A DNA stretch of 64,000 nucleotides from Moniliella sp. 'wahieum'. Lineage: Eukaryota. The stretch lies in NCBI GenBank assembly GCA_003971905.1, contig RSEE01000043.1, positions 62,001 to 126,000 on the forward strand, in the 5' to 3' direction. The notes below the pieces were generated by a model, which did not search any database, had not been told where the DNA came from, and saw nothing but the letters and a program-made list of their open reading frames with translations. Positions 2,288 to 6,519 of the stretch are shown piece by piece. The position numbers and the translations under genes were made by a program. Within the stretch, counting starts at the first letter, position 1. The number at the start of each line of letters is the position of its first letter.

Positions 2288-5200
2288 TTAGACGGTGACC
2301 TTATGGGCGATCGCCATGGCCTGGTCGTCCGAGTGGGAGATGGAAACGATAAACTTGACCTTGTCACCAGCGGCCTTGAGTGCTTCGCCATGCAGTTTGA
2401 CCTGGGGGGGCAGGCCTTGGGTCGAAACGATCTCAATTTCGGCCATGGCTGCCGCCGCGCCCTTGGACGCCGTTCCAATCGCCTTGAACACGGCTTCCTT
2501 GGCGCAAAAGTGGCCCGTGAACGAAGCGCGAGCATCAGGCTGAGCGCGGCAGTAAGCCAACTCGGCGGGGGTAAAGTTGCGCCGGAGGAAGCATCATTGT
2601 CAACGGGGAACGTGCTCGTCTTCTCCACGTCAATCCCGACGCCTTGCACACCTCCAATCATACCGGCCAGCTGGGCTTCTTGCGCCTGAGCCTCCGCCGT
2701 GCCTTGGGCACCTCGGCTTCCACCGCCACGGGCTGGGCAGGCTTCTCGTTCTCAGGCGCCGGAGCCAAGGGGCGCTGGAAAACAAAGGTGCCATCGGCCT
2801 GTTCGGTGGCCCGGGCGTTGGGGTTGAGCAGCACTTCATCCTCCAGGTCTGCAGGGTAAGGAGGGTGGTCCTCAACCCGAACCAGGTCGTTCTTGGTGAG
2901 CATGCCATGCATACGCACATACGTCTTACCCAGCCGGCGACGACGCAGGCGATTGTACTCGGCAAATTGCTCGTCCGACAGACGGCCTAGGAGATGAGCC
3001 GGGTGAAGGAAGAGCGCAATGCCGCCCACTTGGCCAAAGCCAAACGAAGTGACCAGACCAGCGTGGAGGTCCTGCATCGTACGCTGAATCGAAGTGGAGT
3101 TGTAGAGCAAGTAGCGGTACTTTTGCAGTTCAGGGGAAATGTCATCCGCGTTGCGGTTGCCCGTCACTGTGGAGTACAAAAGTGACTGCATCACCCCATT
3201 TGATGCCCACGCGGCCGCACCACCCTTGGCGTGACCAAGGATCCACTTCTGTGCATACAGCGTACCGCCAGACCGGGGGTACGGCCCATGCGCTCAAAGA
3301 GGGAGTTGTACACTGCGACTCGTTTCTTGTCGTTGGCCACGGTCGATGTGCCGTGCATGGAAATGACCCACATCGTCAGCAGTGAGCCCCCACGAGGCGA
3401 GCGCCTTCTGCAGGGGACTGCGACGCCATGACACCGTGGCCGGGAGCTGGAACGGAGCGGCCTTGCTTGTCGGTGTGCGTCGAGGTGTAGGCCACAATAC
3501 TCTGGATGGGACACCCCATCTTGAGCGCCTGGCGGGCGGTCATGAGGATCTGCACACCAGCACCCTGAGATTCCATGAACCCATTACGGCTCCGAGCCGT
3601 CGGGCGCGACATTTCCGATGGTTCGCGACCAGCAGCCAGTTCCTCAACAGCGTTCGAGGTGGCACCCATGTTGGCAAACTCGTACGAACCTTCCTCGCAA
3701 GGTCGTCCAGGCCACCAGCAATCATAACCTTGGCTTTGCCCGAGAGAATGGTTTCGGCTGCAATCTCAACCGACTGGAGACCAGTAGCACATGCGCCGAC
3801 AGGGATCTTGACGGGGCCTGAGGCGGAGAGGATCAGCAAGTTGCACCAACCGGCGATGGTGTTGATGAACGTCTCCTGAAGGACATCTTTGTTCACCTCC
3901 GACTCTTGCCGGCGATCGACAAACATCTTGTGGAGAGAACTCATACCACCCATACCGGAGCCGAGCGAGGTACCAACCTCAGACGGGTGCACATACTTGT
4001 ACAGCTCGTACGCGCTGGCGCCCAAGCCCGACATGACCAGCGCTTCCGACAAACAGACCAAGGCCCAGAGAGTGATGCGGTCCACATTGTTGGCAATGTC
4101 GTCGGGAATACCGTAGCGCTGAGCGTTCCATCCCGTGGGCAGTTGGCCCGCCACAAGGCGGTTGAAGGAGATGGCTTTGGGCACCATGATGCGAGCCCCA
4201 CGCTTGAGCATCACAAACCACACGTCGCCCTCTGCCATGCATCCGCCTTGTCGCCGTGCTCACGCTTGAATTTAGTCGCCTCCTCGGCCGAGACCTCAAG
4301 AGGCTCAAGGTCATGGGTAATCTCAACCTCTTGAACAAACTCCTTCTTGGTCGGGTCGTAGCCACTGAGCATCTCGGGTTCGATCATTCGGACACCCGTG
4401 TGAGCAAGAATGTCCTTTTCATAAAGTGTCTTGACATCCTTGTCCTCCACCGGCTCGCCCGATTTGGCGTCGACCCATCCCACGTAGGGACCATTGGCGC
4501 CTGCCGCACCTGCGAGGGGACCATTGTGGTGCTTGATCAAGCCCATGATCCAAGCCATCTCAATCGCACCCTCCATGGTAAACTCGCCGTGCGCCTCCAT
4601 TTCCCAGCGGGTACGAGAAGAGCCCCAGGGACCCACCTCGGCAAAGCCAGTGCAGACCACAATCTTGTCCAGCTCATCGTCCGTCACCGGCTGGCCTGCA
4701 AGGCGGGCGAGCTGGGTGAGCTCCTTGCGCGGAGGAGGGGGGGGGCGGAGCAAAGCGGAAGTTTGCACGAGGCTGAACATAAACCTTTTGGTGCAGCTTC
4801 TCCGCCGCGGCGCCACGGATCACCACGAAGTCTGCCGAGGCATCCAAGTTGACCATCCGCTTGCACATCGCATCCTCCTGCAGACCCTGGCGCAGAGAAG
4901 CCGACTTCTCAGCCAGGTTGGGCAGCCGATCAAATCCACCGCCCAAATCCGCAAACAGAGGCTCCACCTGTGAGATGGACGAGAGGACGGGGTGCAAAAG
5001 ACCAAGTAGGTTGAATGCCATCTCAACGGGGCTAAAGGTTCGCATTCCCAGGTTTTCCAACGCCTGGGCGATGATGTTGCTCTGCTCCATCAGGCCCGTG
5101 CCACGGACCCAGCCAATGCAGGCACCCGTGATTGAGAGGTAGTCAGACCAACCCTCGGAGGCCCAACGGTTGGCGAGCGTCTCGAGACCAATCTTGGATT

Positions 5201-6519
5201 CCGAGTAAAGACCGTCGGAGCCAAACAGACCGTGGTTAGGCGACAGCGGCGCAAGATGACGCTGGTCGGGCGCGAATCAAACCCGTTGGCCGCCTTTTTG
5301 GCCTTGATCGCACCGAGGAGACGGATCACGTTGGTCATCATCAAACGATGGGCCAACTCCGACTTGTCGCCGATATTGTCAATGGGCATGCCCTGTTCCG
5401 AGATGGCGGCACCTGCGTAGACGAAGTCCAAGTCAAGGCCCATCGTGTCGTAAATGTAGTCGGCCAGGCTCTGCACGTTGCTTGGACGAGCCATTAAAGG
5501 GGAGAATCGTGAGCGAAGAACCACGGGAGCCGACTTCAGTGAAGATTTTTTGGTAAAATTCACACGTCTTGCGGCTGTACGACGAGGTGGTGATGACCAC
5601 CTTGGCGCCCCCGGCCAAAAGACCCTTTACCATCTCCAATCCGAAGAGCCACGGCCAACACCGGTGAGCTACCAATCCAAAAAGAAACAATCACATGTCA
5701 GTTCACCCTTCTTCTGGCAGGGAAAGGAGGAAACGTACAGGGCGTTCTTGTTCTCGAATGTGAGACCTTCGCGCGCCATCTCGTCCAACAAGGAGAAGTA
5801 TACGCTGGTCAGCTTGGCCGAAGGCTGCCATTTCCGGCAACTTTGCGTTGGATGGTGAGGAAAGATTGGCGGCCTTCGGCAAAGGCGCATCGACAAGGGC
5901 ACCGGGAGCTGGACCGGCAGTTGCAACCGTGTCGGATGGACGGCGGGATCGATGCGAGGTGGCAAAGCGCTTGGACTGGGGCGGGTGCCCCAGGGAAACG
6001 GATGGTTTCATTGTACAGACTCTTGATGGTGGCCTTGCCCAGCTTGCTGACGGAAGGCTCGTTGCGGATCAGCGACCATAGCTTGGTAATGTTCTCGTGC
6101 GCCCGCTCCGTGTTGAGTTGGGCGGCGACGGTGCCGGCAGTGCGGGTGCCAGTCTCCATCTCCTTGACGTAGGCCTCGAGTTTGCGCACACCTTGGCGCT
6201 TGACTTCGCGGTAGATAATGTTCCCCTTGGCGTCAATCTCGGTGCAGGGGGCGGTGGGTGCGTAGACCTCCTTCCAGAGCGGGGCCTGGGCGGTGGCGAC
6301 GGCCTCCTTGCAGTTGGCAACCAGCTCGGCGCCAAAGTAGTCCAGCAGCTCATACGTCGGGCCTTGGCCAGGGCTGATGGTGCTGAGCTGGGCCTGCATG
6401 AACTGGACCAGGTCGGGGTCGGAGCGGTTGATGATGGAGATGCACTTTGCGGTGAGCTCGCGGGAGAGGGCGCTCGACGGACCGTCGTGCCATGACGCAG
6501 CAGCAGCGGAGGAGGACAT
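2288..6519 (-). CDS. FAS2: Fungal fatty acid synthase alpha-type subunit (KR-KS-PPT, no ACP); frameshifted, one intron ~5668-5738
   Basis: KR region FENKNAL/intron/[21 protein letters not shown] motifs [18 protein letters not shown], catalytic [26 protein letters not shown] (across a frameshift) and [14 protein letters not shown] motifs [15 protein letters not shown] and VSISHSD. The N-terminus [28 protein letters not shown] resembles the post-ACP helical region of yeast Fas2. Confidence 0.95.

What the first reader, a model, noticed from the sequence alone, without database searches (positions are those of the whole stretch)
2288..6519. ACP-less FAS alpha chain (KR-KS-PPT only): Tremellomycete-like split point in an intron-poor genome
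Seen: the gene starts at Met 6519 ([34 protein letters not shown]). That is after the ACP region, inside the helical bundle preceding KR. The ~900 bp up to the divergent ELO gene is low-complexity, promoter-like DNA with no ACP/MPT coding signal, so the chain is only ~1400 aa. Known: ascomycete Fas2 starts in MPT and carries the ACP; Ustilago-type FAS is a single chain; Cryptococcus/Tremellomycete FAS is split in the 4-helix bundle after the ACP; Rhodotorula FAS is split elsewhere. Inference: this genome has far fewer introns than Cryptococcus, so it may show an independent fission at the same structural site, a transferred gene, or a second specialised FAS. A partner AT-ER-DH-MPT-ACP gene must exist elsewhere.
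Basis: partly seen in the sequence, partly recalled or inferred. Interest (0 to 1): 0.72.

Follow-up and report, generated by a model that had tools for sequence, protein, structure and literature searches.

The report
Fatty acid synthase split twice alike
In this smut-related fungus the giant fat-making enzyme is encoded as two genes, cut at the same spot as in the distant Cryptococcus yeasts but apparently through a separate evolutionary event, which suggests that only a few places in the enzyme tolerate a cut.

Summary
Confirmed. 6519->2288 (-) encodes half of the 4-helix bundle (4HB), KR, KS and PPT of fungal type I FAS (about 1,390 aa, one intron, many assembly indels), with no ACP. The partner (AT-ER-DH-MPT-ACP plus the other half of the 4HB) lies on two other contigs and ends in a stop at the complementary residue. 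Four copies of this gene share the start, and the Tilletiaria anomala record (1,382 aa) begins with the same leader, so it is no misassembly. The cut coincides with the published Tremellomycete site (yeast alpha 427/428). But the gene is not Tremellomycete: it groups with Tilletiaria inside Exobasidiomycetes among chains that are continuous there, AU tests reject joining the two split groups, and it lacks a 90-residue KS insert that the Tremellomycete chains carry. Best reading (0.85): the housekeeping FAS, split by an independent fission at the same loop. Limits: host not placed with non-FAS markers, no RNA evidence, key reviews unseen. Side lead: other Exobasidiomycete FAS records look split at two further sites.

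The parts
2288..6519 (-). FAS2-type gene: half 4-helix bundle, KR, KS, PPT; about 1,390 aa when read through its frame breaks
   Evidence: the read-through aligns to residues 2-1380 of the 1,382-aa T. anomala protein at 73% identity
6463..6519 (-). Start Met and 19-residue leader; its DGPSSALS core is shared with T. anomala and unlike the Tremellomycete leaders
6145..6483 (-). C-terminal half of the FAS type I helical domain (PF18314 positions 92-202); conserved RELTAKC at 6462-6442; residue 17 aligns to yeast alpha 427
5669..5738 (-). 70-nt GT-AG intron between KNAL and LTGVG, present in all four copies
4990..5668 (-). KR core (limits approximate): TGxGxGSIG nucleotide motif (broken by an indel in this copy) and YSESK at 5207-5193
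   Evidence: roles of the motifs recalled
3030..4660 (-). KS: GACAT (Cys) 3797-3783, MHGTST 3358-3341, GHAKG 3236-3222; lacks the about 90-residue insert before the first His
   Evidence: catalytic roles recalled
2291..2637 (-). PPT domain (GIDVEK 2637-2620; PF01648), stop at 2290-2288
6520..7417 (.). 898-bp non-coding spacer between the divergent FAS2 and ELO starts; candidate shared promoter (function not tested)
7418..8290 (+). Fatty-acid elongase gene (PF01151), head-to-head with FAS2 in all four copies; end approximate

Best explanation
This is the alpha chain of the organism's ordinary cytosolic type I fatty acid synthase. An ancestral single-chain FAS gene of Ustilaginomycotina type broke in the turn between the first and second helices of the 4-helix bundle, in a common ancestor of this fungus and Tilletiaria anomala (Georgefischeriales). 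The 3' part (this gene) gained a start codon and a short leader and sits head-to-head with ELO. The 5' part (AT-ER-DH-MPT-ACP-first helix) gained a short tail and a stop and sits on other contigs before an SDH3-like gene. Shown: both gene ends, their complementarity, the catalytic motifs, the tree position, the indel character. Inferred from yeast engineering (PMC6972935): the two termini rebuild the bundle, probably during translation, and six of each chain form the usual barrel, with the ACP carried by the beta chain and primed by the PPT of this chain. The same cut in Tremellomycetes is a separate, convergent event.
For: Partner: first half of PF18314 (positions 3-103 and 3-91), ACP, meander and PF08354 match only on C14 and C19; the second half (92-202) only on C43, C120, C16, C4. 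The C14 partner reads through to 2,549 aa against Tilletia residues 8-2584, with GHSQG, GGHH, GHSLGEY, one GGKST and the DH motif, and stops at C14:508,828-508,830. Same leader in T. anomala. Tree: window + T. anomala + two unnamed relatives 100/100, inside Exobasidiomycetes 98/98 and Ustilaginomycotina 100/100, next to single-chain Tilletia, Sporisorium, Pseudozyma, Violaceomyces. AU test against one clade of all 4HB-split chains: lnL lower by 357, p=2.8e-7 (LG+G4, 25 rows); lower by 278, p=4e-147 (mixture model, 14 rows). KS insert absent in 17 of 17 scored Ustilaginomycotina rows including the window, present in 29 of 29 other scored rows including 9 Tremellomycetes; 2 of 48 rows not scored. 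The partner also falls in Ustilaginomycotina (SH-aLRT 100). A yeast FAS cut at 427/428 is functional.
Against: The T. anomala partner gene and the Tremellomycete FAS1 C-termini were not retrieved, so the match of the two sites rests on alpha-chain starts and the published construct. In the mixture-model tree the Tremellomycetes are sister to Ustilaginomycotina on a short, unstarred branch (SH-aLRT 86); the backbone is unresolved. All copies are frameshifted in the assembly, so intactness is inferred. Only one named species shares the start; the three unnamed close relatives (P0047, P0068, P0073) are second-exon fragments and say nothing on it. Four FAS2 copies face two full-length FAS1 copies.
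Confidence: 0.85

Rival explanations
1. One ancient fission in an early basidiomycete, kept in Tremellomycetes and the Tilletiaria lineage, with re-fusion in all other lineages.
For: Identical site; weak sisterhood of Tremellomycetes and Ustilaginomycotina in one tree (SH-aLRT 86). Change counts cannot give direction; the minimum is 2 changes.
Against: Needs several re-fusions (Ustilaginomycetes, Tilletiales, Meira/Microstromatales group at least) that each restore the ancestral loop exactly: 260 of 314 proteins holding the first loop motif have the same 24-residue spacing, 1 has 23, 53 gave no second motif and were not inspected. The two split groups have unrelated leaders.
Confidence: 0.04
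2. The split gene pair is of Tilletiaria type, but the host is another lineage that acquired it, or the split is older or younger than Georgefischeriales.
For: No non-FAS marker was tested here; only one named Georgefischeriales protein was retrieved.
Against: Both unlinked halves fall in Ustilaginomycotina and no other FAS was found in the genome, so both would have had to move and replace the resident gene.
Confidence: 0.05
3. A second, specialised FAS (secondary metabolism or very-long-chain lipids with the neighbouring elongase), or a decaying pseudogene set.
For: ELO is the head-to-head neighbour in all four copies; 42 frame breaks over four copies; FAS1 remnants on C127 and C198.
Against: No other FAS found in the genome. 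No in-frame stop in any copy's read-through, breaks almost all deletions of one or two bases, and only 1 at the same residue in two copies. Contigs of related DNA differ by an indel at or near 6 of the window's 12 break places among the 12 of 27 indel rows shown. KS and KR motifs are kept.
Confidence: 0.03
4. Assembly artefact at the G-runs near 6527-6627, or an upstream ACP exon spliced in.
For: The assembly is error-rich; no near-identical public contig bridges 6491-6574, a stretch the tool flags as skipped repeats; no transcript data.
Against: C16 and C4 lack the long runs yet have the same ATG and the same ELO neighbour. The partner ends in a stop followed by another gene on two contigs. 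T. anomala has the same N-terminus. No ACP-like sequence in 6520-64000.
Confidence: 0.02
5. Horizontal transfer of a Tremellomycete FAS2.
For: Same architecture and start position.
Against: AU tests; KS insert absent; identity 73.5% to T. anomala, 61-62% to three single-chain smut proteins, 56-57% to three Tremellomycetes on the best local alignment.
Confidence: 0.01

Closest known systems
Tilletiaria anomala UBC 951 KDN47731.1 / XP_013243923.1 (P0001, named 'thiolase-like protein'; Georgefischeriales)
   Same: 1,382 aa, half 4HB-KR-KS-PPT, no ACP, same leader core, no KS insert; 73% identity; closest named row in all alpha-chain trees
   Different: Database record only, not named as FAS; its partner was not retrieved here
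Tremellomycetes-type FAS (Cryptococcus, Tremella, Trichosporon; PMC6972935)
   Same: Same domain partition and same cut in the 4HB: conserved sequence resumes at RE(L/I)T after a 9-13-residue leader; published site 427/428 in yeast numbering
   Different: Different subphylum and gene clade; carries the about 90-residue KS insert; unrelated leader
Single-chain FAS of Ustilago, Sporisorium, Pseudozyma, Testicularia, Violaceomyces and Tilletia
   Same: Nearest unsplit relatives; share the KS deletion; the two halves here tile the single chain
   Different: One polypeptide of 3,700-3,960 aa, continuous through the 4HB loop
Ascomycota-type and Rhodosporidium-type two-gene FAS
   Same: Two-gene fungal FAS made by fission of a single chain
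   Different: Cut in MPT or in the SBS; ACP on the alpha chain

Membership tests
Fungal type I FAS alpha-type chain | KR, KS and integrated PPT with catalytic motifs, plus the PF18314 helical domain | tested here: met
Fungal type I FAS (complete two-gene enzyme) | Complementary chain with AT, ER, DH, MPT and ACP in the same genome | tested here: met
   C14 and C19
Fungal type I FAS (complete two-gene enzyme) | Assembles into the alpha6-beta6 barrel and makes fatty acids | not testable with these tools
   inferred from PMC6972935
Tremellomycetes-type topology | Split inside the 4-helix bundle after the ACP, at yeast alpha 427/428 | tested here: met
   window residue 17 aligns to yeast 427; construct fas2 delta(428-1887); starts compared
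Tremellomycetes-type topology | Beta chain ends at the same residue as Tremellomycete FAS1 | not tested
   no Tremellomycete FAS1 sequence was retrieved
Tremellomycete FAS2 clade (descent) | Groups with Tremellomycete alpha chains | tested here: not met
Tremellomycete FAS2 clade (descent) | About 90-residue KS insert present | tested here: not met
Ustilaginomycotina FAS clade | Monophyly with smut FAS and shared KS deletion | tested here: met
Ustilaginomycetes-type topology | All domains on one polypeptide | tested here: not met
Host in Georgefischeriales | Placement by rRNA or single-copy markers | not tested
   exact look-up of two RPS0 copies found nothing; only FAS trees were built

The most novel reading that the evidence does not exclude
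FAS fission is recurrent and site-restricted. The 4HB turn was cut independently in Tremellomycetes and in the Tilletiaria lineage, and Exobasidiomycetes hold two more undescribed fissions: inside MPT in Meira and Ceraceosorus (9 of 9 related records share one Met start about 130 residues before the ascomycete site) and near the start of MPT in Microstromatales (4 named records of 2,028-2,087 aa). The usable sites would be those where the new termini intertwine and allow co-translational docking, and the new leader and tail here would be a lineage-specific docking pair.
Probability: 0.5. Interest if true: 0.65.

Novelty: new variant of a known kind. Interest (0 to 1): 0.5.

Why it matters
The published scheme that I could read lists one split site per lineage and a single chain for smuts (PMC6972935). 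A second origin of the same cut, within a few residues, is a natural replicate: it argues that fission sites in this 2.6-MDa enzyme are set by structure and assembly and are not historical accidents. It gives natural new termini to test in the yeast system where the Tremellomycete-type cut already works, and it warns against using the FAS split as a phylogenetic marker. It is not a new enzyme or chemistry, and the T. anomala record has been public under another name.

Tried and rejected
Complex prediction of the partner's last 120 residues with the window's first 176: no verdict, score 0.00, alignments not used. Sequencing runs: no RNA holder listed. Laying three runs of unknown kind: no listed piece bridges 6491-6574 and none spans the stretch; one contig of a more distant relative (X3 record 14, 4,587 nt) covers the gene from 2379 to 6490, has only 49 letters before that place and joins across the intron; its molecule type is unknown, so it is a hint only. 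Metagenome scans for close relatives found nothing. ESM Atlas gave no usable hit. Exact look-ups of two RPS0 copies and two first-exon ORFs were not in the collection, so no marker-based host placement. The representative search gave no FAS1-type chain ending at the 4HB site: 5 proteins end within 48 residues of the loop motif and look like fragments. Two Agaricomycete models (P0067, P0070) start near the site but at an internal Met with unchanged single-chain sequence; treated as fragments. My frameshift aligner missed the intron in the C43 and C4 copies, so their break counts are approximate. Literature: no paper in the library holds 'fatty acid synthase' with 'Tilletiaria', 'Tilletiaria anomala' with 'genome' and 'FAS', or the fission term sets; two searches gave one paper each, seen as listing only (on Tilletiopsis-like fungi and on Malassezia); some searches listed 3, 20 of 23 and 20 of 92 papers, none on this split by title. 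PMC4456111 is not held and the supplement of PMC6972935 could not be read; both may bear on novelty.

Full report
Observation. The minus strand from Met 6519 to the stop at 2290-2288 encodes a fungal type I FAS alpha-type chain without ACP. Residues 13-125 match only the second half of the FAS helical domain, PF18314 positions 92-202 of 203; KS and PPT follow. Residue 17 aligns to residue 427 of the yeast alpha chain. There is one 70-nt intron at 5738-5669. The N-terminal halves of three single-chain FAS proteins have no tblastn hit in 6520-64000. An elongase gene starts divergently 898 bp upstream.

The start is real. The genome (69.5 Mb, 223 contigs) holds four copies, on C43 (the window), C120, C16 and C4, 98% and 97% identical within two pairs and 91% between pairs, each beside ELO. 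C16 and C4 lack the long G/C runs but have the same ATG. Identity between the window and C16 goes from 48% with 46 gap columns in the 300 nt before the ATG to 92% with no gap in the 300 nt after it. The best database hit, Tilletiaria anomala P0001 (1,382 aa, Georgefischeriales), begins [25 protein letters not shown] against the window's [26 protein letters not shown].

Frame breaks. Read through with X at the breaks, the four copies cover T. anomala residues 2-7 to 1380 at 73-75% identity, with 12, 10, 5 and 15 breaks and no in-frame stop (the counts for C43 and C4 are approximate because the intron was missed there). Nearly all are deletions of one or two bases; 6 pairs lie within 4 residues of each other and 1 at the same residue. 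Contigs of related DNA differ by an indel at or near 6 of the window's 12 break places among the rows shown. I read them as assembly errors; this is inference.

The partner. The first half of PF18314, the ACP, the meander domain and PF08354 match only on C14 and C19. The C14 gene reads through to 2,549 aa against residues 8-2584 of single-chain Tilletia horrida FAS, with the AT, ER, DH, MPT motifs and one ACP motif (motif roles recalled). It ends YYDILKGRLGLENGRLTSLEHE and a stop at C14:508,828-508,830, followed by a gene that I read as SDH3 from its sequence (recalled, not searched); C19 has the same end. Single chains read YYDII(Y/F)GRLT(T/A)VDREITARC across this point. The two genes therefore tile the single chain. 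The tail GRLTSLEHE resembles GRLTTVDRE, so both halves may keep a copy of the same few residues, which would fit duplication followed by complementary truncation; this is weak and by eye. No single-chain FAS or second FAS type was found; these searches score only the best candidates.

Same site as in Tremellomycetes. PMC6972935 (passages read; supplement not readable) describes four topologies: single chain (Ustilaginomycetes type), cut in MPT (Ascomycota), in the 4HB (Tremellomycetes) and in the SBS (Rhodosporidium). Its tripartite strain carries fas2 delta(428-1887), which puts the Tremellomycete cut at 427/428. Yeast FAS cut there is active, and removing helices alpha10-12 from the new alpha chain abolishes activity. 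Of 461 proteins held, 37 longer than 700 aa start within 30 residues of the RE(L/I)T motif: 34 Tremellomycete records, T. anomala, and 2 Agaricomycete models that look like fragments. The Tremellomycete leaders (for example MAAEGMDKESIVR) do not resemble the Tilletiaria-type leader. Tremellomycete FAS1 ends were not retrieved.

Different origin. In a 48-row FastTree and a 25-row IQ-TREE (LG+G4) the window's copies group with unnamed proteins and T. anomala (100/100), inside Exobasidiomycetes (98/98) and Ustilaginomycotina (100/100); their neighbours Tilletia, Sporisorium, Pseudozyma and Violaceomyces are single chains, and the Microstroma and Meira-type records are continuous at the 4HB. The tool warned of a long-branch join between those last two rows only. 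Forcing all 4HB-split chains into one clade is rejected (p-AU 2.8e-7; 4e-147 under a mixture model with 14 of the 48 rows). Against: in that mixture tree the Tremellomycetes are sister to Ustilaginomycotina on a short branch with SH-aLRT 86, and the backbone is open. A tree-free character agrees with the main result: an insert of about 90 residues in KS (probably DM4; name recalled) is absent in 17 of 17 scored Ustilaginomycotina rows, the window included, and present in 29 of 29 other scored rows, 9 Tremellomycetes included; 2 of 48 rows could not be scored. The partner chain also falls in Ustilaginomycotina (SH-aLRT 100, 20 rows, no Tremellomycete row). One ancestral split would need several exact re-fusions; the loop spacing is 24 residues in 260 of 314 proteins with the first motif, 23 in one, and unscored in 53.

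How it most likely works. Shown: two unlinked genes with complementary ends and intact motifs. [quoted passage not shown] The ACP rides on the beta chain and is primed by the PPT of this gene. The head-to-head position with ELO suggests that the 3' half took over an existing promoter; this was not tested.

Limits. The host was placed only by FAS. Earlier notes of this scan on other pieces of the genome also name Tilletiaria as nearest relative and call the assembly error-rich; I did not check them beyond the error pattern, and the scan has no note on this split. There is no transcript evidence. Only one named species shares the start.

Novelty. The partition itself is known; its independent origin on a smut-type backbone is what I did not find in print. 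PMC7300031 (passages and Introduction read) speaks of six topological variants without listing them; bioRxiv 10.1101/336578 (passages) shows the same four as the journal version; PMC4393869 (passages) reports two FAS genes in Xanthophyllomyces. Bukhari 2014, Grininger 2014 and Fischer 2015, cited there, were not seen and could contain it.

Wider lead. Nine records, among them Meira miltonrushii and two Ceraceosorus species, start at one Met inside MPT (MS[IV]LQKADP, near Sporisorium residue 1996; the ascomycete start is near 2127). Four named Microstromatales records of 2,028-2,087 aa start near 1834-1864, at differing Mets. Their partners were not seen, so these may be further fissions or gene-model artefacts.

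Verdict. Real feature; housekeeping FAS; convergent fission at the Tremellomycete site, confidence 0.85; new variant of a known kind; interest 0.5.

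Noticed in passing
proteins P0412, P0030, P0413, P0414, P0026, P0029, P0419, P0038, P0421: Meira, Ceraceosorus and unnamed relatives: 9 of 9 FAS records start at the same Met inside MPT, about 130 residues before the ascomycete split; possible undescribed fission. 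Partners not seen.
   Followed up: partly
proteins P0052, P0042, P0422, P0423: Four Microstromatales genera have FAS records of 2,028-2,087 aa that start just before the MPT active-site motif; possible further fission or annotation effect.
   Followed up: partly
G000 C127:151,990-153,110 (L049) and C198:2,620-3,700 (L033): Decayed FAS1 remnants (66-77% identity, about 1.1 kb, most of the gene deleted) beside a copy of the downstream neighbour gene; FAS2 has four full-length copies but FAS1 only two.
   Followed up: partly
G000 whole genome; window 36093-36926 and 56909-57580: Loci occur on four or more contigs (LPD1-like on C43, C51, C26, C147; RPS0 at 7 places on 6 contigs), FAS2 in two pairs 91% apart: looks like a hybrid or polyploid assembly.
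   Followed up: partly
window 6520-8290: FAS2 and a fatty-acid elongase are head-to-head in all four copies, while sequence further out is rearranged between the two pairs of copies.
   Followed up: partly
window about 3440-3360 (KS); All scored Ustilaginomycotina FAS lack a roughly 90-residue KS insert that all other scored fungi have; a clean marker for the subphylum.
   Followed up: yes
proteins P0145, P0146, P0148: Pseudozyma, Sporisorium and Testicularia have HMTATK where other FAS have HGT(S/G)T at the first KS histidine.
   Followed up: no
window 8730-8770 (- strand): Short 7-base repeats (cctgagg units) in the spacer beyond ELO, like the heptamer arrays noted elsewhere in this genome by earlier findings.
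   Followed up: no
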